Below, in pieces: positions 2,880-59,918 of a stretch of DNA of 64,000 nt. Origin of the DNA: Naegleria gruberi. Lineage: Eukaryota. Within the stretch, counting starts at the first letter, position 1. Each line of letters starts with the position of its first letter. Under the pieces are notes generated by a model that searched no databases, had not been told where the DNA came from, and was given only the letters and a program-made list of their open reading frames with translations. Location of the stretch: assembly GCA_000004985.1 (NCBI GenBank), contig GG738862.1. One strand, given 5' to 3'. A program made the translations under genes and the position numbers.

Positions 2880-5195
2880 TTACATTTGATTCCAAAATCC
2901 AAACCAGTTAATTTTCATTAAGATTACAATAAATCCAATATCTAATAACAAGAAGAAGAGGTAAACAAGTGTAAATACCCATCCAGAAATAGTTCTAAAC
3001 TTGACTCTAATACACATAATGATTGGAATGAGAATAGCACAAAGGAAAGTCAGAATGATTGATACTAATGGAAGATATAACATTGCTGTCCATTGTTGCC
3101 AAATACCAAAGATTGTCAAAATATTAATTGCTTTGAGAGCTGTGAATAAGAACAATGCAAATATGTGGAAGATAAAGATTGACAGGATTATACTCCATTT
3201 CTTGGCTGCTGATTTCTTGACACCCATATCACTCTTCTTTTTCTTCTTCTTCTTGATGCTATTCTTTCTCTCCAATTGAACACGTGATGAGTATCTCTTC
3301 AGAGAAGATTCAATATTTTCATCAAGTTCTTCATCAGAGTCCTCATCACTGGATTGATAATTATTTCCACTCAACATTATGTGAGACAAATCTGCATTTG
3401 CCAAATTATTAAATCCATTCTTTGCACGATCTCTAACCTCAAAAACAAGGAAGAATAAATGAATGAATGGAGCAACGAATCCAAAAACAAATGGAGCACC
3501 AAATACGAGATAAATGATGAATGTACTGAGTCTATCATCAAATCTTTCATATCGTTGGGTATCATATGGACCAGTTAAATAAACAACATTCTCTCCTGAT
3601 TTGACACTGAAGGTCCAACTGTGATTTGATACATAATTGTCAAATGTTACCATTCCATTACTTAAATGTCCCATTCTAAATGAATCAAATCCAAACTCTT
3701 GAACAAAAATAAATTCATCTGAACCAATTGGAATAGTTCCAGTTGCAGAAGGTTGATTTGGATCAAAATTATACAATTTTGCTGTTAAATAATTACTGGA
3801 AGAGATTGGTGCATCAATACAAATCATTTCCTTCATGGTAAAGTATTTTCTGAAAGTTGAATGAGAAAATTCAGAATTAACATAACAACCAGCATAATTC
3901 TTCTTGAAACTATCAAAATATTCCTTCTTGTATAGTGGAACAATAGATGTCAAAGAGCTAGTCAATTGACATGTACCATTCGAAACAAGAACCAAATTGT
4001 CATAATCACTACATTTAGTGTTTGGCAAAATATTATATGAAAATTGTTGAATCATATCATCAGCTACTTCATAAGAACCGCCCAATCCACTAATACTCAA
4101 CACTAAATTCTCCTTTGGAAAGGTAATAATGGCAGTCAAATAATTACCAACTTTGGAAAATTGATAATAATAAACTTGATTATTATGGGTAGCGTAACTC
4201 AACAAGTTCATATCTTGAATTTCCTTCTCAGAGTACTTGCTCATAACATAGACACCTATCTTATTTAAATCAGCACATGTAGAAAACAAATTAGTGGTTA
4301 CTGGATAAATTGAATAATATTTAAAATTGGAATCTTCTGAGAGAATATCATTTTCCTTGGTTGCTTTTACAAAATTTGAGCTATCTCTAACATCTGAATT
4401 AAATAATGGATAACTTGATTGTAAATTGAATACTGTTTTAAATTGATTAGAGTAAATATAGTCCAATGATTGATTTTCACTCAACTTGTGAATTATATAA
4501 CCCATCAATGCCATTCCATCAACATCAATTCTATTTTTCAATTGATTGACTTGTCTAATACGTGGAGCCAAATGACTTTGAATATTTTGTTCAAATACTT
4601 GCATTAAACTAACACTTGACGAAGATTGTGGATTATTACTCAAGTACAAATCCAAATCATTTCTAAAATCAAATCCTGAATTTCCAATTAATAAATTTTG
4701 AAAAGTAACAAAGGCATTAGCAGGAATAATTGGCAACATTCTCGACCAACTCACATAATCACCAACAATATCTTGTGAAATTGAAATTTTAGATTGAACA
4801 GAATTTAAAATTTCATTAACTGTTAAAGTTTTCTTTTCATTTGGTACTAAATTTAATGCCACAAGTTTTGTAATAAGTTGACTAATGGTTGGACCTGACA
4901 TGTAAATTGACTGATCAACTGAAATTGGTGAATTTGGTTTATAACTATCATGGACATAGGATTTGGAAAATAGTACGCGATTATCTTGTAAATTTGAAGA
5001 ATTATAGGATGACAATTGTATGGCAATATTGGCCATTCCTAATTTTGATAATGATGAATAGTAATTATTAAAAAATGTTTCGACATTGTCACAGCTCACA
5101 CTTTGTAGAATTAATGACAAGATGATGAGTATGAATAGTTTAGAATAAATATGACCTTTCGGATAGAAAGATGAACCCATTCCTTGCTTGGTCAT
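2880..5195 (-). CDS. hypothetical secreted or membrane glycoprotein with an N-terminal signal peptide and a C-terminal multi-pass transmembrane region
   Basis: A 771-aa ORF. The hydrophobic N-terminus 'LFILIILSLILQSVSC' looks like a signal peptide. There are many NxS/T sequons. A KKKKKKK linker is followed by several C-terminal hydrophobic helices. Confidence 0.5.
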   Translation of the reverse strand: MTKQGMGSSFYPKGHIYSKLFILIILSLILQSVSCDNVETFFNNYYSSLSKLGMANIAIQLSSYNSSNLQDNRVLFSKSYVHDSYKPNSPISVDQSIYMSGPTISQLITKLVALNLVPNEKKTLTVNEILNSVQSKISISQDIVGDYVSWSRMLPIIPANAFVTFQNLLIGNSGFDFRNDLDLYLSNNPQSSSSVSLMQVFEQNIQSHLAPRIRQVNQLKNRIDVDGMALMGYIIHKLSENQSLDYIYSNQFKTVFNLQSSYPLFNSDVRDSSNFVKATKENDILSEDSNFKYYSIYPVTTNLFSTCADLNKIGVYVMSKYSEKEIQDMNLLSYATHNNQVYYYQFSKVGNYLTAIITFPKENLVLSISGLGGSYEVADDMIQQFSYNILPNTKCSDYDNLVLVSNGTCQLTSSLTSIVPLYKKEYFDSFKKNYAGCYVNSEFSHSTFRKYFTMKEMICIDAPISSSNYLTAKLYNFDPNQPSATGTIPIGSDEFIFVQEFGFDSFRMGHLSNGMVTFDNYVSNHSWTFSVKSGENVVYLTGPYDTQRYERFDDRLSTFIIYLVFGAPFVFGFVAPFIHLFFLVFEVRDRAKNGFNNLANADLSHIMLSGNNYQSSDEDSDEELDENIESSLKRYSSRVQLERKNSIKKKKKKKSDMGVKKSAAKKWSIILSIFIFHIFALFLFTALKAINILTIFGIWQQWTAMLYLPLVSIILTFLCAILIPIIMCIRVKFRTISGWVFTLVYLFFLLLDIGFIVILMKINWFGFWNQM

Positions 5196-5352
5196 CTTTC
5201 GAATATTTTTTTTAATAATTAATTTAATTATTATTTACATGTTACTCACCAAGTTTCTATTTTTCAATTAGAAACCATACAAATTGACTTTTTCAGCAAT
5301 AGATGGTTACAACAATCAACTCAGATTACAACAAAATTTAATACTAAACTCT

Positions 5353-46822: not shown

Positions 46823-48585
46823 ATGGAAGTTAAATTTTCATATCCATCAGATGATAATATAAATGTAAAATTTGGAGATAATATATTATTATTAACACCT
46901 AAAAAATTAAATTTTCATTCCCTAATTAGACCTGATCTTTCCATAAATGTAAAATATAGTACTTTACAAAATTATAAAAAATTATATTCATTAAATGAAT
47001 TATATTTAAATCATTTAATGAATATAATAGAAAAAGATGAAATTCAAGAAGAAATTCAAAGTTATTATTGTCCATCATGTTTAACTGAATTTGCTAAAAG
47101 TGAAGCAATGTTTAACAAGATGAAATGTCAATTTTGTTTTTCATGTCCATCATGTCAATGTAATTTAAATTTAGTTACAAGAAATTTACAAACATTTTTA
47201 TCATGTCCATATTGTTATTATGATACTTTGGATATTAATTTAAAAACAAATGATTCATTTAATCAATTATTTGAAATTGTAAAGGAAAATGATAATAGAT
47301 TACAATCAGATTTTAATTTACAATTAAGAAAATATGCTGATCATGTTAAAAAATTAAATTCAAATTCAAATTCAAATCAACAATATAGAAAATTTTCAAT
47401 AGTTTTAGATTCTTATGTAACTGTGACTACTAATAGTAATTCATCATCTAATAATAGTAATAATAATAGAATTGGTAATAGTAATACTTCTAATTATGGA
47501 AATGGAATTGAACCATTAACTCATTCATCAAATGAAAGTTTAGATTCCTATTTAAAAAAAAGTGATCAAAGAGTTCAATACATGACATCAAGTGAATATT
47601 CATATAATAATTTAATATCATTTGAAAGTAAATTACAAAATAATAATAATAATACATTTAATTCTAATAATTCTAATAATAATAATAATGACATTTCAAT
47701 GTTGTATCCACAGAGAAAAACACTTTGTATTAAAAAGATTAAAAAATATGGAGAGGAAATTATTGTTAAAAGAGATTCAAAAAATCATTCAACTAATTTT
47801 GATATTAATTATAATGCAATGTATGTTTTTTAATTTTTTAATTTTAATTTTAATATTTTTAAAGTAAATTTTTACCTAAATTTTCAATACTTAATGTACC
47901 AGTATTAAATGTAAATAGAGAATCAGATATATATTTATTAATTACAAATCCAAATGAGGAATGTAGATTATATTTAAATTTAGAATCATTTGATAATAAT
48001 GTTAAATTAAATTTACCTAAAAAGACAATAGTATTAAAAGAAAATAATGGATTAGAATCATATTCAGCTGATGTTCAACAATTAGGAATTGAAGATGAAA
48101 AATTGAGGGAATTAGATCATGAAATTGAACACATAATTGAAAGGAGAAATAATCAATTAAAAATTAGAATTGGAGTTTTACCATTTGAATCCAATGTTAA
48201 ATTTAAAATAAGAGTTAAATTGAGTGGACTATCTTTGAGTGCTGCATTTTCATCTTCTCCAAATTCTGTTACATCACCTAATAATAATTCAAGTTCTGCT
48301 ATCACTAATTCAAATAGTAATATCAATAACAATAGTAATAATAACTCATCAACAAATGCTACTAATAATAATGGATTGACTGTTTCATCAAGTTTAACAA
48401 ATTCAATGATGGAATCAATAGCACTAAACTCACCCAAAAAGAAGGAAATGTATGAAAAACAAGAAAACAAACAAGTGGAATATCTTGTACATTTTCAACT
48501 TCCAAGTGCTGTTTATACTGAAGATGATTTGAATGAGCACCAAGAAAGTTCTACACCAAAAGTTGACTGGATTAAAGTTTATTGA
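46823..48585 (+). CDS. DCTN4: dynactin subunit 4 (p62/DCTN4) homolog. There are two exons with a short intron near 47821-47900, plus a 1-nt frameshift near 47940.
   Basis: 'SYYCPSCLTEFAKSEAMFNKMKCQFCFSCPSCQCNL' matches DCTN4 '[36 protein letters not shown]'. Downstream, 'ISILNVPVLNVNRESDIYLL' and 'ITNPNEECRLYLNLE' match '[25 protein letters not shown]'. These two segments lie in different frames, separated by a single extra A. The exact intron boundaries are not resolved. Confidence 0.65.
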
Positions 48586-48734: not shown

Positions 48735-51698
48735 TTAGACATTTTCTTGATTAACTCCTCTTCCATTATTATCTGTGTTATTATCACCAGCAATTGGACC
48801 ATCATTGGATAATGTAGTACTATTATTAGTTGTATCATTACCAATTCCATATTGTCTTCTCAATGCATCCAAATCAAAAGGTAAAGTTAATTGAATTTGT
48901 AAATTTGGTCTCTTTGCATTTTCTCTTCTCAATTTTTCTAATTCTTCTTCATCAATAATCCACATTTCATCATCATCATAACGTTGACCAAAACATAATA
49001 AATTTGATTTGATAAAATCTAAAGCCTTCATAAAATTATTACCATATTTTGAATTATTAAAATTATTTAAAAATCTACGTTTAGATTCAACCTGTTCAAC
49101 ACGTGCAGTACCAGTTGTTGTATCAAATGGAAGTGGAATTTCCTTAGTTGCTCTATAATTTTCTATATTTGCAATATTTTCATGTTCAATACGGAAAATA
49201 TTCCAAATAAATCTTCTTAAAATTTCCAAAAATACAAACAAGTATAAAATCCATTCCAATGTTTCCTTTTCAATTTTAACAAATGATTTAACAAATAAAA
49301 ATGGTAACCAAACCCATCTTAGTATAATATTACTAAACATGGCCATATAATAATATTGAGGTGAAAATATTAATTTAGATCTTAATCCCCAATATTTAGT
49401 TTTCTTTTCAAATAAACCCATATCAACACGTAAATCCCAATATAATTTTAAACATGTTGAAATAATATTTATAATAATATATATAATACGTAATATTGTA
49501 AATGATCCAATTAATATATTATTAGAATTATCCAATGTTAATTTATCAATAAATGCAATAATAATGACTAAACATGATGAAAAATATTTTAATGCATTTA
49601 ATAAATGCATTTTTTGTCTAGTATCATAATATTTTCTTAAACATTGCATTAATCTAACATGATATGGAATGTAATTTAAAATTGGAATTCCTAAACTTTT
49701 AGTTGAAGAACAAAATAAAGAAATTGTTGAAAATTTTGAAGTTGCAGGATAAATACAACCAATAAATTGTAATTCAAATAAAACATCAGATAAAGAAGTT
49801 AATTGATCTGCAATAAAAAAGTCAGAAAATCTAACTACTGTAAAAGGAGATGCTAACATTCTTAAAATACATTTTAATAACCAATATCTAAATTCAAAAT
49901 TTAAAATTTTAAAAGGATTAATTAAATATAAAATAAAAATAATCCATAATATAATTGGATGCCAATATGCATATTGTCCTATTAATAGAATATTACTTAA
50001 ATAGGAAATTACATTCATCATGTAAATTAATTGACTTGTAAAAATTATATTTAAAATTAATAATGAAATTGATAAAAATTTCCAAGTTGATAAACACATT
50101 AATGGATTTAATCCTAATATGTAAATATAATTAATATTATATTTACTCCAAATTCTAATATTTATACTTATAAAAAATGTTAATAATGTTGGAAATAATA
50201 ATAATCTATATAAAGAAAAACTTTGATCATCATATTCTATATTTTCCTTATTTGTAAATTCATATGTATAAAAATAATAAAATAAATTTATAATTATTAA
50301 TATAAATAAACTTCCTAATAAAATACCACTTGTAAATATATCTTTTAAATTATTTACTTCTAAAATACCAATATCTCCTATTTTTAATTTACTTAATTGT
50401 TCACTTGCTAATTTTATATCATTTTCACAATAATATTCTGCATAATAATAAATTGTATCTTTAATATGTTTATCAATTAAATTAGAATTTTTAAAATATT
50501 GATATTTTATAAATTTTATATTTTCAAATATTTCTGTAAAATTAATATTTCCATATATAGTATCATAATAATTATTATATTATTATTATTTAGAATTATT
50601 ATTATTATTAGAATTATTATTAAAATTATTATTAATAATAATAGGAGTATTAATTGAATTATTTTTAGAATTATAATTAATTGCATCATTTAATTCATTA
50701 AAAGTAAATTTAATTTTTCTTTTTGTAATTTCATTTAATTTTGTTGTAATATGAATTAAAGCATTATAATTAACTAATCTATAATTAAATAATAAATTTA
50801 AATTATAATAATGTTCTTCAATTCCTTCTTTTAATTTTTGTTTTTGATTAAATGTTAAAATTTCTAATTTTGATGATTTACTATCTTTAGAAATTAATGA
50901 TCTTGCATATTTATTATCATTATACATTTCATTAATTTTATTAATTTGTTCTAATAATCTATTATGTTCATCATTAATAGAAATTTCATTTTCTAAATAA
51001 AAATTATTAATCTTATTAATTTCCTTATATAGTAAATATTTAAAATCTTCAATTAAATTATTATTTATATCATTATTATTATTATTATTTCTTCTATTTG
51101 TTAAATTAATAGATGAAGATATAATATTTTTAATATTAAAATCAGAATGTTTAAATTCATCTTTTAAATCATTTAATTTATCAAGTAAATATTTATAATC
51201 TAAATATTTAACTTGCCATTCTGTTACCATATTTGCATAAAATTGTTGTTGTAATGTTTTTTCATCATATGAAGATGATATTATTATAGATTCAGATGAT
51301 TCACTACTACTACTACTATCATCTGATTCTACACTTTCAATACTATTTCTATTTTCATTATCTTCATTAGATCTCAATAATATATTATTAGTATTATTAT
51401 TGCTGTTATTATTATTATTAATAGATTTAAAAGAGTGATGATGATGATGACGGTGATGATCACCATATTCTATTGGATCATCAATATATTTATGATGATG
51501 ATCTAATAATTCTAATTCATCTTCTTGATTTAATGGAATATCTTCTTCTATACGTTCATCATCATCATTAATTGTTGAGGAATGTATCATCATCATTGGT
51601 GGAGGAGGTGTTGAAAAACTTCCTACCCCACTACCAATGGGTGATGAAAATGATGACAAGTTTGGTGGAGTCTTGTTAATTATACTTGTTCTTCTCAT
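48735..51698 (-). CDS. SPX-EXS protein (XPR1/SYG1/PHO1-like phosphate exporter homolog). Two in-frame stop codons (TAATAA at 50583-50588) lie between the SPX and EXS parts.
   Basis: The upstream ORF 50586-51698 has an SPX domain: 'FYANMVTEWQVKYLDYKYLLDKLNDLKDEF', 'DFKYLLYKEINKINNFYLENE...' and '...YNALIHITTKLNEITKRKIKF'. The downstream frame is open without any ATG from 50582 to 50099. It encodes transmembrane helices and the EXS signature 'RFIWNIFRIEHENIANIENYRATKEIPLPF'. Both parts are in the same frame. Confidence 0.7.
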
Positions 51699-51772
51699 AT
51701 TGTAAATACACTTGTTGTTGTTGTTCTATGAGTAGTTTCAATAGGTATTAGATGATAATAATATGATGCTAT

Positions 51773-54133
51773 TTGGATATAGAAATGGATGAATTTATAG
51801 TAAATACAGTTACAGATACTATTGAAAATGTAATAGTATCATTTAAATGTAAAAGTTATTGGTTTATTTCATTTGATGGTGTTGCAACTAAATCTAAAAG
51901 ACTTTTACAAAGAGATAATAGAGCTAAAACTTCACGTAAATCAAATAAACAGTTATTTAATAATAATAATAATAATATAGATGATAATAATAATATAGAT
52001 GATAATATAGATGATAATAATATAGATGATGAACAAGTTGATAAAGAAGATCTCATTGAAGATAAAGAAGATTTCATTGAACAAGATGATAATAATATTA
52101 TTATTATTGAAAAAGAACAAGATGAATTAAATGATGATGAACAAGATGAAAATCCAAAAAAAAGAAAATTAAATGATGATATCAATGAAGAGAATGATAA
52201 TAATATTAATAATAATAATACTACTCCTATAACAAATATATCTAATAATAATACAAATACTAATAATAATAATATAAATAATAATAATAATATAAATATA
52301 GATAATGTAGAATGTAAAAGATCATTAAGTGTAGAAATATCACCTGGTACAAATTTAAGTAAATTAATGTATGAATCAATAACTAAATTAACATACCAAA
52401 TATGTAAAAAATTAAAAATAGATATATATGTATCATCTACTAATAGATCAGGTGAAGGTGAAACTAAAATAATTGAACATTTAAGACAATATTCTAAAAA
52501 TAATACATTACCTAAATCAGTATTAATTATATCACAAGATTCAGATATGATTTTAATACCATTAATTAATTCAGATATTAATTGTTCTTTTTATATTTTA
52601 ATACCAAATTCAATACAACATTTTAAATCTGGTAATTTTATTGATGTTACAAGTTTTAAATTATTTTTATATAATTTTATTTCTAAAAATAAATTTAAAA
52701 AAATAGATAATTCTAATATAAATAGTAATTATTCTATAAATAATTATAAAAATATTCATCAATTATGTTTAGATTTTGTTAGTATTACATTATTAGCAGG
52801 TGGATGTGATTATTTTAGATATTTTCAAAAAGGATTTATAAGAAATTGGAGAAATTATTTTAAATTAATTGAAAATTCATCTAATTTTAATATTTTTGAA
52901 TTAAATATTTTAAATAATTCAGAAATTGAATTTACAATTAATTGTAATAATTTTATATCTGTATTTGGAAGTAGAGTACCATATACACAAATGGAAATGA
53001 AAAGTGATCCAAATAATGCAATTTTATTTTTTAAACAATTATGTGCATGTATTTTACAATTTAAAGGAATAATTCCAATTATGGAATATTTTAATAATCA
53101 TTTAAAAATGATTGATGTTTTACATTTATTTTCTTTAAATAATAATTTTTATGAACAAGTTGAATTTACAAATAATAATAATATTACTAAATTTAGAAAA
53201 GTAATTACAAAAACATTTAAAGATAAAATTAAAATTTTAACAACAATTGAAGAATTAACAGATAAAACAAATTTAACTCCACTTGAAGGTTTAATTTCAA
53301 TGATTAATAATTTAAATTATCATGCATTACCAAATCAAAATTTAATTGAAATTTTTAAACATGAAGAATTATCTTTTATTTTAAATATAAATACAAAAAT
53401 GGAAAAAAAATATTGGACTTTAAATGATCCTTATTTAAAAATTAGAAATTTTATTAATGAATGGAAAATTAAATATTCAAATATTAATGATAATGAAATT
53501 AATAATATTAATACTGGTACTTTATATTTAAAATATAATGATTATAATAATATATTGACTTTTATGGAAGGTAATAGACCATTTATGGAATTTAATAATA
53601 TTGATTTAAATTTAAATTTAAATAATAATTATCATAAATATTTAAATATTTCAAATATAATTACTGCTCCTTCTATTGATCAAATTAATTTATTAAAATT
53701 ATTTGATGAAACTGATCCACATAAAAATTTAACTAAATTAGTTTATAAAAGACAAAGACGTCCTAATAATAATAATAGAAATAGAAATAATAGAAATAAT
53801 AATAATAGAAATAGAAATTATGATAGAAATGATAATTATGATAGAAATAGAAATGATAATAATAGAAGTAGAAATTATGATAGAAATTATGATAGAAATG
53901 ATAATAGAAATACTACTATTGAAGATAAGAATAATGATAAAAGTAGTTATGATAATAGAAGAGATGATAGAGATAATAATTATAGAAATTATGATAGAAA
54001 TTATGATAGAAATAGAAGTTATAATGATAATAGAAATGATAATAGAAATTATAATAATAATAATTATAAAAGAAGAGATAATAGAGGAAATACTTTTTAT
54101 AATGAAAGAAAAGATAATGATAGAAATAAATAA
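51773..54133 (+). CDS. XRN-family 5'-3' exoribonuclease-like protein with an Asn-rich insert and an Arg/Asn/Tyr/Asp-rich C-terminal tail. The N-terminus appears truncated.
   Basis: Conserved XRN motifs are present. 'FISFDGVATKSKRLLQRDNRAK' corresponds to 'IAIDGVAPRAKMNQQRSRRF'. 'SGEGETKIIEHLRQ' corresponds to 'PGEGEHKI'. 'LIISQDSDMILIPLI' corresponds to 'GLDADLIMLGL'. The roughly 60 aa normally upstream, including the 'DMNGIIH' motif, are absent from this ORF. Confidence 0.55.
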   Translation: MDIEMDEFIVNTVTDTIENVIVSFKCKSYWFISFDGVATKSKRLLQRDNRAKTSRKSNKQLFNNNNNNIDDNNNIDDNIDDNNIDDEQVDKEDLIEDKEDFIEQDDNNIIIIEKEQDELNDDEQDENPKKRKLNDDINEENDNNINNNNTTPITNISNNNTNTNNNNINNNNNINIDNVECKRSLSVEISPGTNLSKLMYESITKLTYQICKKLKIDIYVSSTNRSGEGETKIIEHLRQYSKNNTLPKSVLIISQDSDMILIPLINSDINCSFYILIPNSIQHFKSGNFIDVTSFKLFLYNFISKNKFKKIDNSNINSNYSINNYKNIHQLCLDFVSITLLAGGCDYFRYFQKGFIRNWRNYFKLIENSSNFNIFELNILNNSEIEFTINCNNFISVFGSRVPYTQMEMKSDPNNAILFFKQLCACILQFKGIIPIMEYFNNHLKMIDVLHLFSLNNNFYEQVEFTNNNNITKFRKVITKTFKDKIKILTTIEELTDKTNLTPLEGLISMINNLNYHALPNQNLIEIFKHEELSFILNINTKMEKKYWTLNDPYLKIRNFINEWKIKYSNINDNEINNINTGTLYLKYNDYNNILTFMEGNRPFMEFNNIDLNLNLNNNYHKYLNISNIITAPSIDQINLLKLFDETDPHKNLTKLVYKRQRRPNNNNRNRNNRNNNNRNRNYDRNDNYDRNRNDNNRSRNYDRNYDRNDNRNTTIEDKNNDKSSYDNRRDDRDNNYRNYDRNYDRNRSYNDNRNDNRNYNNNNYKRRDNRGNTFYNERKDNDRNK
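53760..54120 (+). repeat. coding low-complexity repeat (RN/YD-rich, 'RNYDRN'-type) at the C-terminus of the XRN-like gene
   Basis: Iterated 'agaaat(agaaat)...tatgatagaaat' units translate to 'NRNRNNRNNNNRNRNYDRNDNYDRNRNDNNRSRNYDRNYDRNDNRN...'. Confidence 0.7.
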
Positions 54134-57353: not shown

Positions 57354-59918
57354 ATGTCATTACACGATGATCAATTATCCTCCTCTATTACAACTCCCCA
57401 ACAAGATGATGATATTAATAATAAAGATATTGTTGATGAATTGAATAAATATGATATTAATAATAATAATATATTTGGTTATAATAAACAAATAAATAAA
57501 AAACAAATTATATATGGATGTGGTGATGGATTTTGGAAGAAACAAACCGATATAATATCAATTACTAAATTAACAAATTTTGATAAAATAGATTATTTAC
57601 AAAATTATATATTAAATGATAAAATAATTAAATTTAAATGTAAAGATCAATTATGTATATTTCTTACTAGTAATGGAAATGTATATAAAATGGGACAATG
57701 TACATTTATAAATAATTGTACAAATATTCCAACATTAATTAATAATTTTAAAAATGATAAAATTATTGATTTTTCNNNNNNNNNNNNNNNNNNNNNNNNN
57801 NNNNNNNNNNNNNNNNNNNNNNNNNNNNNNNNNNNNNNNNNNNNNNNNNNNNNNNNNNNNNNNNNNNNNNNNNNNNNNNNNNNNNNNNNNNNNNNNNNNN
57901 NNNNNNNNNNNNNNNNNNNNNNNNNNNNNNNNNNNNNNNNNNNNNNNNNNNNNNNNNNNNNNNNNNNNNNNNNNNNNNNNNNNNNNNNNNNNNNNNNNNN
58001 NNNNNNNNNNNNNNNNNNNNNNNNNNCTTTTATAGAATATAAAAAAAATGGTAAATATCAAGTTGACTATTTTTATACTTTAAATTTTACAAATATTACT
58101 AAAATAGTAAAAGAATGTAATAAAAATAAAAATATATTTATTAATAATAATAAAATACAAGATATTAAAGATATTCAATGTAATGGTATTAATACTATAA
58201 TTATTTATAATGATAATACAAATATATTATCTCCTTTATTTAATGATTATTATAATCCAATTAAAAATGAAATTATTTTAAATAAAGTTTATAATAATTT
58301 TATTTTTGAAAATGTATATCAAAAATTAATTTTAAATGAATATCAAATTTTATATTTAAATAATAATAATGAATGTAAATTTATTGATTATAATGGTAAT
58401 TTATTTAAAATGGATAATATTATAAATATGGAAAGTGGTACATTTCATAGTTTTTTACAAACTATTGATAATAAATTTTATTCATTTGGATCTAATGAAT
58501 TTGGTGAATTAGGATATAATAAGAAATTTAATGAATTAAAACAAGTTGAATTACCATTTACTATTAAGGAAGGTGATAATGTTCAAATTTGTTGTGGTAA
58601 AAATTTTACTATTTTAATACATGAAACAGATAATGATGAAATATTTAAAATTAATAATTTAATTGTAACTGATAATTTTAATTTTAATTATGAAATTAAT
58701 TCAAATTTTTATTTAAATTTAAATTTATTAAAAAATATTTCCAATGATTTTTATAATTTAATTACAAATAATAATATAATTGAATATTTAAATGAAAATG
58801 ATCAAAAAGCATTATATTATTTAATTAAAAATGCATTAATTAATTTAAATAATTTAACTAATTTAGATGAATTATTTATTAATTATGATAAATTTATAAA
58901 ATTAATTTCCTTTAATGAAATTGAATTAAATTTAGTAACATGTCTATTTATATTAAATGATATAAATGATATTAATAATGAAATTAAATTATTATTATTT
59001 AATGATCTATCAAATAGAATTAATATTGATAATATTATGAATATTTTACAAAAAGTTAATAATTATCTTTCTTTAAATATTTTAAAACAATCTAAAAATA
59101 GTATTTTATTATTATTAGCAAATAAATGTTTAGCATTTATTAAAGAAAATGAAAAATTATTAAAATCAGAAAAATTATTTGAAATTATTAAAGATAAATT
59201 ATTAAATATTAAAAAATCATTTAAACAAATTATTTATAAAATTGATAATATTACTACTATAAATGGAATTGATAATAATATTAAAAATATAAATGAATCA
59301 TTAAAATTATTATATAATAATAATGAAAATAATGATATTAAAATTATAATTGATGAAAATTCAAATGAAATATTATATTTACATAAAAGTATATTATCTA
59401 TTCATAGTCCAGTTTTAAATATTTTATTTAAAAATTTAAATATTAATGAAATTAATTTATATGAATTTATTGAAATGATGATATCAGATGAATGGATAAT
59501 TAATTTATTTAAATATTCAAATAAAATTAATGAAATATTAAAAATAATATTTAAATTATGTTATGGATATAAATTAAATAATTTAAATTTAAATAATTTA
59601 ATTGGTATTTTAATTATTTCACAACAATTAGATATTACATGGTTAATTAAATATACATGTAATTTAATTATTGAAAAATTTAATGAAATTAATGATACTG
59701 AATTTATTTTATTACTAAATTTAGTATCAATTTCACAAAATAATAATAATTGTAAAGAATTTGTTGAATATTTTAAAATATTTTGTTCAAATAATTTATC
59801 ATTTGATTATTTACAAAAAATACAATCAGTTTGTAAAGATAATCAATCATGTGATAATTTTATTAAAATTATTATTGATTATTATTTAAGAGTACATACT
59901 ATAAATAGAAAATATTAA
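57354..59918 (+). CDS. RCC1-repeat + BTB/POZ-domain protein (RCBTB-like). It contains an assembly gap.
   Basis: The N-terminal part has RCC1-like blades ('IIYGCGDGFW', 'FGSNEFGELGYN', 'VQICCGKNFTILI'). The C-terminal part has a BTB domain ('DIKIIIDENSNEILYLHKSILSIHSPVLNILFKN...INLYEFIEMM'). An N-run at 57776-58026 lies inside the CDS. Confidence 0.55.
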   Translation: MSLHDDQLSSSITTPQQDDDINNKDIVDELNKYDINNNNIFGYNKQINKKQIIYGCGDGFWKKQTDIISITKLTNFDKIDYLQNYILNDKIIKFKCKDQLCIFLTSNGNVYKMGQCTFINNCTNIPTLINNFKNDKIIDFXXXXXXXXXXXXXXXXXXXXXXXXXXXXXXXXXXXXXXXXXXXXXXXXXXXXXXXXXXXXXXXXXXXXXXXXXXXXXXXXXXXXXFIEYKKNGKYQVDYFYTLNFTNITKIVKECNKNKNIFINNNKIQDIKDIQCNGINTIIIYNDNTNILSPLFNDYYNPIKNEIILNKVYNNFIFENVYQKLILNEYQILYLNNNNECKFIDYNGNLFKMDNIINMESGTFHSFLQTIDNKFYSFGSNEFGELGYNKKFNELKQVELPFTIKEGDNVQICCGKNFTILIHETDNDEIFKINNLIVTDNFNFNYEINSNFYLNLNLLKNISNDFYNLITNNNIIEYLNENDQKALYYLIKNALINLNNLTNLDELFINYDKFIKLISFNEIELNLVTCLFILNDINDINNEIKLLLFNDLSNRINIDNIMNILQKVNNYLSLNILKQSKNSILLLLANKCLAFIKENEKLLKSEKLFEIIKDKLLNIKKSFKQIIYKIDNITTINGIDNNIKNINESLKLLYNNNENNDIKIIIDENSNEILYLHKSILSIHSPVLNILFKNLNINEINLYEFIEMMISDEWIINLFKYSNKINEILKIIFKLCYGYKLNNLNLNNLIGILIISQQLDITWLIKYTCNLIIEKFNEINDTEFILLLNLVSISQNNNNCKEFVEYFKIFCSNNLSFDYLQKIQSVCKDNQSCDNFIKIIIDYYLRVHTINRKY
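57776..58026. other. assembly gap (251 N)
   Basis: A run of N characters in the sequence. Confidence 1.

What the first reader, a model, noticed from the sequence alone, without database searches (positions are those of the whole stretch)
50560..50600. In-frame TAATAA separates the SPX and EXS halves of an XPR1/SYG1-like gene
The SPX-domain ORF (51698 to 50589, minus strand) ends in '...NNNSNNNNNSK' followed by TAA TAA. The same frame then continues open for about 160 codons without any ATG (50582 to 50100). This stretch encodes the expected SPX-to-membrane linker and the first transmembrane helices. It then runs into the EXS-domain ORF (to 48735). In other eukaryotes SPX-EXS is a single polypeptide. 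No GT...AG intron can remove the stops, because the local sequence contains no G. The options are a recent nonsense mutation (pseudogene or gene fission), programmed stop-codon readthrough, a strain polymorphism, or a base-calling error in a low-complexity AAT/AAC run.
Basis: seen in the sequence. Interest (0 to 1): 0.6.

Follow-up and report, generated by a model that had tools for sequence, protein, structure and literature searches.

The report
Triple stop inside Naegleria phosphate-exporter gene
In the Naegleria gruberi reference assembly, an otherwise intact XPR1/SYG1-type phosphate-exporter gene is cut by three adjacent TAA stop codons inside an AAT repeat, which is most likely a very recent knockout mutation or a sequencing error and not a new biological mechanism.

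Summary
The window is Naegleria gruberi. On the minus strand a 370-codon SPX reading frame ends in three tandem in-frame TAA (50588-50580), not two. The same frame then stays open for 614 codons to 48735.

The stops do not lie between SPX and EXS. They lie in a Naegleria-specific, Asn-rich, hypervariable loop inside the SPX domain, before its C-terminal part (human XPR1 residues 179-212).

The N. fowleri orthologue is one uninterrupted 1143-codon exon. Two other relatives are also open through this loop.

No intron can remove the stops without deleting conserved codons. There is a 119-nt G-free run, the nearest upstream GT is 186 nt away, and there are no U12 motifs.

The downstream half shows no decay. 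It keeps 41 of 44 family-conserved residues, and the 3 differences are shared by all Naegleria. dN/dS is 0.13-0.23. If the frame is now neutral, at most about 2% neutral divergence has passed.

The first in-frame ATG/GTG/TTG is 160 conserved codons downstream, after TM2, so a functional fission is unlikely.

Best reading: a very young lesion from an out-of-register (AAT)4 block, giving a null allele of strain NEG-M. A consensus error is a serious rival. No reads were available to decide between them. Interest is low.

The parts
50580..50588 (-). Three tandem in-frame TAA codons, reading TCT AAA TAA TAA TAA TAT. They form an (AAT)4 block that is one base out of register with the AAT (Asn) codons on both sides.
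50589..51698 (-). Upstream ORF of 370 codons. It holds an N-terminal low-complexity extension and the first part of the SPX domain, up to the helix that matches KILKKFDK in canonical SPX proteins (here HITTKLNEITKRK). It is not annotated in the N. gruberi protein set.
50520..50683 (-). Asn-rich hypervariable loop of about 55 codons at about 10% GC. It contains the 119-nt G-free run 50565-50683. The loop is specific to Naegleria, it cannot be aligned between species, and it is open in frame in all three relatives.
50100..50579 (-). 160 open codons with no ATG, GTG or TTG. They encode the C-terminal part of SPX (matching XPR1 179-212), the linker, TM1 and TM2. They are conserved with the orthologues (61% amino-acid identity, dN/dS about 0.22).
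48735..50099 (-). ORF from the first in-frame ATG (MCLSTWKF), 454 codons. It covers TM3 to the end of the EXS domain and the C-terminal tail, and ends with the TAA stop at 48737-48735.
48735..49859 (-). The only part covered by a public N. gruberi protein model. P0003 is 374 aa, starts at MLASPF and is 100% identical to the window.
51773..54133 (+). Divergently oriented XRN_N exonuclease gene. The same neighbour sits beside the N. fowleri and N. lovaniensis orthologues, which supports orthology by synteny.

Best explanation
The locus is the N. gruberi orthologue of the intronless Naegleria SPX-EXS gene, which encodes an XPR1/SYG1/PHO1-type phosphate exporter with an inositol-pyrophosphate-sensing SPX domain.

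In the sequenced NEG-M haplotype, an Asn-codon microsatellite in a hypervariable SPX loop carries an (AAT)4 block one base out of register. That block reads as TAA TAA TAA. Two origins fit. One is a 3-bp duplication (AAATAT to AAATAATAT) that created one TAA, followed by slippage expansion. The other is a single 9-bp insertion.

As sequenced, translation ends after 370 residues. The product would be an SPX fragment without its C-terminal part and without the transporter. This makes the sequenced copy a null or severely truncated allele.

The lesion is very young. It may be allele-specific in this heterozygous, probably polyploid lab strain, or newly fixed. Everything else in the 2.9-kb gene is still intact.

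What is shown: the stops, the orthology, the openness of the relatives, the absence of an intron solution, the absence of decay, and the age bound. What is inferred: that the sequence is real and not a consensus error, the way the repeat block arose, and the null phenotype.
For: - Three tandem TAA sit in frame.
- They lie inside an AAT-repeat tract whose flanking units are in the Asn register.
- The N. fowleri orthologue is a single 1143-codon exon that is open through the loop. ENA contig L001 (69% identity) and N. lovaniensis are also open through the loop.
- The neighbouring XRN_N gene is syntenic.
- The downstream 614 codons are open, with P about 7e-29 by chance.
- dN/dS against relatives is 0.13-0.23, and the N. 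gruberi branch shows no consistent acceleration.
- 41 of 44 family-wide conserved residues are kept, and the 3 differences are shared by all Naegleria.
- The nonsense target of 135.7 site-equivalents means at most about 2.2% neutral substitutions per site since inactivation, at 95%.
- It is the only split of this kind in the window, so TAA is not generally read as sense here.
- NEG-M is reported to be heterozygous (PMC9928731, citing Fritz-Laylin 2010).
Against: - No reads, traces, ESTs or a second N. gruberi assembly could be examined, so a consensus error cannot be excluded.
- The simplest description of the difference from a plain (AAT)7 tract is one inserted A and one deleted A 12 nt apart. 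That looks more like a local base-calling shift than a single mutation.
- I found no other close SPX-EXS paralogue from Naegleria among the best 150 representatives. If the gene is single-copy and important, a homozygous null would be surprising.
Confidence: 0.5

Rival explanations
1. Consensus or base-calling error in the Sanger NEG-M assembly. The true sequence would be TCT (AAT)7 TAT TAT, coding S N7 Y Y. A 12-nt stretch is displaced by one base through one extra A call and one missing A call. The gene would then be a normal single-exon SPX-EXS gene.
For: - The observed 24 nt have the same length as TCT(AAT)7 and differ only by moving one A (sequence).
- The region is about 10% GC and low-complexity. 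Shotgun cloning coverage and read quality tend to be poor in such sequence (general knowledge).
- The assembly is Sanger-only, in 1,977 scaffolds (PMC9928731 Table 1), with a gap 7 kb away.
- Every other feature of the gene is intact.
Against: - Two compensating errors would have to survive in a multi-read consensus.
- No other split of this kind occurs in the 64-kb window, despite 24 runs of four or more AAT/ATT units.
- Nothing in the window marks this stretch as low quality. There are no Ns and no case masking.
Confidence: 0.27
2. Genuine functional gene fission. A stand-alone truncated SPX protein is made from 51698-50589. A separate EXS transporter starts at ATG 50099, or at a later Met as in the 374-aa annotated model.
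For: - The public annotation models only a C-terminal EXS protein.
- Starting at M(50099) removes exactly two TM helices, TM1 and TM2 by alignment to XPR1, so membrane topology parity would be kept.
- EXS-only and SPX-only proteins exist elsewhere (established knowledge: yeast ERD1, plant SPX1-4).
Against: - The 160 codons between the stops and the ATG have no ATG, GTG or TTG, yet they are open (P about 4.5e-8) and conserved. They include 5 family-conserved residues and the C-terminal part of SPX. An old fission would have let them decay.
- The SPX fragment would lack part of its fold.
- No relative shows a split at this position.
Confidence: 0.08
3. The stops are bypassed and a full-length protein is made. 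This could happen by unconventional RNA excision, for example an exitron using 50881 GTAAAT ... TTTTACAG 50534, or a non-GT-AG intron. It could also happen by translational readthrough or hopping.
For: - The complete lack of decay downstream is what a still-expressed gene would show.
- One frame-preserving GT-AG pair with plausible-looking sites exists, 50881-50534, 348 nt.
Against: - All 19 frame-preserving GT/GC-AG candidates delete conserved codons. The 348-nt candidate would remove the conserved helix region LEILTFNQKQKLKEGIEEHYYNLNLL...KRKIKFTFNE.
- Its 5' site GTAAAT differs from the GTATGT seen at the one intron in this window that I reconstructed by frame continuity, and at a second possible 5' site whose intron I did not confirm.
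- There are no U12-type motifs.
- Three tandem UAA form a fail-safe terminator, not a leaky context (established knowledge).
- No suppressor tRNA was found in the window.
- No literature links Naegleria with readthrough of this kind.
Confidence: 0.07

Closest known systems
XPR1 / SLC53A1 (human), SYG1 (yeast), PHO1 (plants): SPX-EXS phosphate exporters
   Same: The domain order is the same: SPX, then a linker, then a 10-TM EXS-containing transporter. The EXS Pfam score is 258 bits. The match to XPR1 cryo-EM chains has E about 5e-50, and PHO1;H1 and SYG1 structures also hit. The segment just after the stops matches XPR1 179-252 with E about 1e-18. 41 of 44 family-conserved residues are kept.
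   Different: As assembled, the gene is not one polypeptide. The Naegleria clade has an N-terminal extension in place of the canonical MKF start. Its Lys-helix motif is degenerate (TKLNEITKRK instead of KILKKFDK). It also has a long low-complexity insertion inside SPX. The SPX Pfam score is weak, 29.5-35 bits.
N. fowleri FDP41_010357 (P0001), the orthologue
   Same: It is 67% identical over the transporter half. It has the same XRN_N neighbour and the same clade-specific SPX features. It has no intron.
   Different: It is a continuous 1143-codon ORF with a longer T/N/Q-rich loop where N. gruberi has the stops. Its GC is 34%, against 20% in N. gruberi (GC3 7%).
Premature stop created by trinucleotide-repeat change in a coding microsatellite (young pseudogene or null allele)
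   Same: A disabling lesion is confined to a repeat tract in a low-complexity loop, and the rest of the gene is intact.
   Different: Slippage in a coding trinucleotide repeat normally keeps register and only changes the length of the homopolymeric amino-acid run. Here the block is out of register, which needs an unusual first step or two indels.
Programmed stop-codon readthrough genes
   Same: An in-frame stop is followed by a long conserved open frame.
   Different: Known cases use a single leaky stop, usually UGA or UAG, with a specific 3' context or structure. Here there are three tandem UAA in an unstructured A/T tract.

Membership tests
SPX-EXS phosphate exporter (XPR1/SYG1/PHO1) | EXS domain with the conserved transmembrane core residues | tested here: met
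   The Pfam EXS score is 258 bits. XPR1, PHO1 and SYG1 structures hit at E values from 5e-50 to 3e-25. 41 of 44 conserved columns are kept.
SPX-EXS phosphate exporter (XPR1/SYG1/PHO1) | N-terminal SPX domain | tested here: met
   The Pfam SPX score is 29.5 bits against a cutoff of 27.8 for the upstream ORF. The C-terminal SPX part lies after the stops and matches XPR1 179-212 and the 5IJH SPX construct. The Lys-cluster motif is degenerate in all Naegleria.
SPX-EXS phosphate exporter (XPR1/SYG1/PHO1) | SPX and EXS encoded in one continuous polypeptide | tested here: not met
   Three in-frame TAA lie at 50588-50580. The feature is met in N. fowleri.
Spliceosomal intron (U2- or U12-type) that removes the stops | GT/GC-AG or AT-AC boundaries flank the stops, preserve the frame and spare conserved codons | tested here: not met
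   There is a 119-nt G-free run. All 19 frame-preserving candidates delete conserved sequence. No U12 5' splice-site or branch-point motifs are present. A reconstructed intron in the window shows GTATGT...AAAG over 44 nt.
Programmed stop-codon readthrough | A single leaky stop with a known stimulatory context or downstream structure | tested here: not met
   There are three tandem UAA followed by U in an A/T-only tract. I did not search for a downstream RNA structure beyond reading the sequence.
Pseudogene (old) | Multiple lesions and relaxed constraint (dN/dS near 1, loss of conserved residues) | tested here: not met
   There is one lesion cluster only. dN/dS is 0.13-0.23. No lineage-specific loss of conserved residues is seen. 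The age bound is at most about 2% neutral divergence.
Young null allele or unitary pseudogene | The disabling lesion is present in the organism's DNA, not only in the assembly | not testable with these tools
   No N. gruberi reads or second assembly were reachable. Exact-product look-ups and two metagenome scans were empty.
Gene fission | An independent start codon for the downstream half that covers its conserved N-terminal part | tested here: not met
   There is no in-frame ATG, GTG or TTG for 160 conserved codons.

The most novel reading that the evidence does not exclude
N. gruberi still makes the full-length SPX-EXS exporter from this locus. It would do so by removing or bypassing three tandem UAA codons through an unconventional route. 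One option is a non-GT-AG excision of part of the A/T-only loop, comparable to the nonconventional introns of euglenids, which also belong to Discoba. Another is exitron-type splicing that yields a transporter with a deliberately shortened SPX sensor. The intact state of the 614 downstream codons does not exclude this.
Probability: 0.04. Interest if true: 0.75.

Novelty: new member of a known kind. Interest (0 to 1): 0.2.

Why it matters
If the lesion is real, the reference strain NEG-M carries a null allele of what appears to be its only close XPR1/SYG1-type phosphate exporter. If the lesion is homozygous, the strain lacks the exporter altogether. That would matter for work on phosphate and polyphosphate homeostasis in this model amoeba, and for pangenome presence/absence calls.

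Either way, the public annotation needs correcting. The current 374-aa EXS-only model leaves out the SPX half and the codons for TM1 to about TM4.

If the lesion is an assembly error, this is only a correction to the reference. No new mechanism is implied by any evidence obtained here.

Tried and rejected
- My first guess of a dictyostelid origin, from the AT-rich, Asn-rich sequence, was wrong. A 100% match to an N. gruberi protein settled the organism.
- The first homology search used the whole concatenated protein. Low-complexity words swamped it and it returned one hit.
- The search with the SPX half found only a metagenome fragment, P0018/L004. That contig stops at an intron and a scaffold gap before the loop.
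- Exact-product look-ups for P0003, the 370-aa ORF and the 454-aa ORF found no other contigs.
- Two metagenome scans with alignments A1 and A2 found no relatives.
- A GC-AG intron from 50684 to 50534 was rejected. It is 151 nt and breaks the frame (sequence; one search lists only frame-preserving pairs).
- A U12-type intron was rejected because there are no motifs.
- A double ribosomal frameshift (+1, then -1, through the open +1 frame of the loop) was considered and dismissed. It has no slippery or stimulatory features.
- A statistical test of loop openness was uninformative. P(3 stops or fewer) is 0.11 on shuffles, and the repeat structure violates independence.
- Literature searches for Naegleria with XPR1, SPX, EXS or readthrough found nothing relevant. 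The N. gruberi genome paper is not held.

Full report
**What is in the sequence.**
On the minus strand, the frame that starts at ATG 51698 runs for 370 codons and ends ...NNNSNNNNNSK. It is followed by three consecutive TAA codons, not two, at 50588-50580. The same frame then stays open for 614 more codons, to a TAA at 48737-48735.

The first in-frame ATG, GTG or TTG after the stops is ATG 50099, which is 160 codons downstream.

Pfam places SPX in the upstream ORF (29.5 bits; cutoff 27.8). It places EXS (258 bits) in the downstream stretch, starting 40 codons before that ATG.

At the composition of this segment, 614 open codons have a chance probability of about 7e-29. The other two frames carry 62 and 84 stops.

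A scan of all six frames shows this is the only place in the 64-kb window where two open segments of at least 100 codons in one frame are separated by 5 codons or fewer. TAA is therefore not being used as a sense codon in general.

**Organism and orthologues.**
The C-terminal 374 residues are 100% identical to a 'predicted protein [Naegleria gruberi]' (P0003). This is the only public N. gruberi protein model at the locus. The SPX half and the stretch from the stops to MLASPF are unannotated.

The N. fowleri orthologue (P0001, FDP41_010357) carries both SPX and EXS. It is encoded by one uninterrupted 1143-codon exon (L002 3001-6432).

An uncultured relative (ENA contig L001, 69% identity) reads straight from the SPX helix region through the loop into the transporter.

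N. lovaniensis is also open through the loop.

A divergently oriented XRN_N gene flanks the locus in N. gruberi, N. fowleri and N. lovaniensis. These genes are therefore orthologues by synteny.

**Where the stops fall.**
In the alignment with Naegleria and other heterolobosean SPX-EXS proteins, the stops lie in a clade-specific, low-complexity insertion. This insertion has a different length and sequence in every species. It sits between the helix that corresponds to KILKKFDK of canonical SPX domains and the motif F..S......E.....f..GdRkkAm..LR.

A profile of the roughly 85 residues that follow the stops matches human XPR1 residues 179-252 (E about 1e-18). Its first part matches residues 179-212 of the isolated XPR1 SPX-domain crystal construct 5IJH (E 0.002).

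Residue 79 after the stops aligns to XPR1 224, the approach to TM1. The first ATG aligns near XPR1 300, after TM2.

The stops therefore interrupt the SPX domain itself. They do not mark a boundary between SPX and EXS.

**Can an intron remove them?**
The minus strand has no G from 50683 to 50565, a run of 119 nt. The nearest upstream GTs are at 50774, 50881 and 50925.

I enumerated every GT/GC...AG pair that spans the stops, preserves the frame and yields an open product. There are 19, and each deletes conserved coding sequence.

The best-looking pair is 50881 GTAAAT ... TTTTACAG 50534, 348 nt. It would remove the strongly conserved LEILTFNQKQKLKEGIEEHYYNLNLL...KRKIKFTFNE region.

No U12-type 5' splice-site or branch-point motifs are present.

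For comparison, I reconstructed an intron in the neighbouring dynactin-p62-like gene from frame continuity. It is 44 nt long and bounded by GTATGT...AAAG (47821-47864).

**Is the gene decaying?**
It is not.
- Nei-Gojobori dN/dS against L001 and N. fowleri is 0.13-0.21 for ATG-to-end. It is about 0.22 for the 139 aligned codons between the conserved KFIKYQYF motif and the ATG.
- The N. gruberi branch is shorter than that of L001 in one segment and longer in the other, so there is no consistent acceleration.
- Among 125 non-Naegleria relatives, 44 columns that are at least 85% conserved fall in the post-stop segment. N. gruberi keeps 41 of them. The three differences (F to L, R to K, W to M) are shared with N. 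fowleri and L001.
- 267 of the 614 downstream codons are one substitution away from a stop, which gives a target of 135.7 site-equivalents. If the frame has been neutral since the stops arose, no more than about 2.2% neutral substitutions per site can have accumulated (95% bound). This does not count indels.

**How the stops could have arisen.**
The local sequence is TCT (AAT)5 TCT A(AAT)4 AT (AAT)2 TAT TAT. The flanking AAT units are in the Asn register, and the middle four are shifted by one base.

Three routes fit:
- (a) A 3-bp duplication, AAATAT to AAATAATAT, creates one TAA, and slippage then expands it.
- (b) A single 9-bp insertion.
- (c) The true sequence is TCT(AAT)7. It has the same length as the observed sequence, and one A is displaced by 12 nt. 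That would be a pair of compensating one-base errors, which fits a local base-calling shift better than two independent mutations.

NEG-M was sequenced by Sanger only (PMC9928731 Table 1). The tract is about 10% GC. I could not reach reads, ESTs or a second N. gruberi assembly. Exact-product look-ups and two metagenome scans returned nothing.

**Weighing the explanations.**
- Real, very young lesion giving a null allele, or a just-fixed unitary pseudogene, in a heterozygous lab strain (heterozygosity noted in PMC9928731): about 0.5.
- Consensus error: about 0.27.
- Functional fission: about 0.08. It is disfavoured because the 160 codons after the stops have no start codon, yet they are open (P about 4.5e-8) and conserved.
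- Bypass by unconventional splicing or translation: about 0.07. It is disfavoured by the intron analysis and by three tandem UAA forming a fail-safe terminator (established knowledge).

No evidence gathered here points to a new mechanism.

**Comparison with known systems.**
By domain content and conserved residues, the locus is an XPR1/SYG1/PHO1-type SPX-EXS gene. As assembled, it fails the single-polypeptide criterion.

The Naegleria clade as a whole departs from canonical SPX in three ways: an N-terminal extension in place of the MKF start, a degenerate Lys-helix motif, and a long insertion loop. These departures are shared by the intact N. fowleri gene and are unrelated to the stops.

**Verdict.**
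It is most likely an ordinary young nonsense lesion or a sequencing artefact in a coding microsatellite. Interest is low (0.2). Read-level data would settle it in minutes.

Noticed in passing
L003 (N. lovaniensis PYSW02000036.1) about 4418-4470 and about 5284-5315: The N. lovaniensis orthologue has two frameshifts relative to N. fowleri and is annotated as two genes (C9374_008915 SPX, C9374_008914 EXS). The assembly is PacBio-based, so these may be indel errors. Still, both non-pathogenic species have a broken copy in their assemblies, while N. fowleri is intact.
   Followed up: partly
window 48735-51698 (minus): The gene is extremely AT-rich, with GC 19.9% and GC3 7%. Its orthologues are at about 33-34% GC. 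The window as a whole is 28% GC, and the reported genome value is 35%.
   Followed up: partly
L001 1-141; L004 about 700-720: Two uncultured relatives have a spliceosomal intron next to the KLKE/GIEEHYY codons of the SPX domain. N. gruberi and N. fowleri lack it, so intron presence varies within the clade.
   Followed up: partly
window 48735-49859 (minus): The only public N. gruberi model for this locus (P0003, 374 aa) starts at an internal Met (MLASPF). It omits the SPX half and the codons for TM1 to about TM4, so it is an annotation truncation caused by the stops.
   Followed up: yes
window 47821-47864 (plus): A 44-nt intron (GTATGT...AAAG, phase 2) joins ORF 46823-47820 to 47865-48585 in a dynactin-p62-like gene. 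It serves as a local example of N. gruberi splice sites.
   Followed up: partly
window 50700-50790 (minus) and the alignment: In all Naegleria orthologues, the SPX helix that normally carries the inositol-pyrophosphate-binding Lys cluster (KILKKFDK) reads TKLNEITKRK or TKLEEIIKRR. The canonical N-terminal MKF is replaced by a long extension. The ligand sensing of this SPX domain may differ from that of XPR1.
   Followed up: no
window 57776-58026: A 251-N assembly gap lies 7 kb from the finding.
   Followed up: no
window 51699-51772: Only 74 nt separate the divergent start codons of the SPX-EXS gene and the XRN_N gene, so the shared promoter region is very compact.
   Followed up: no
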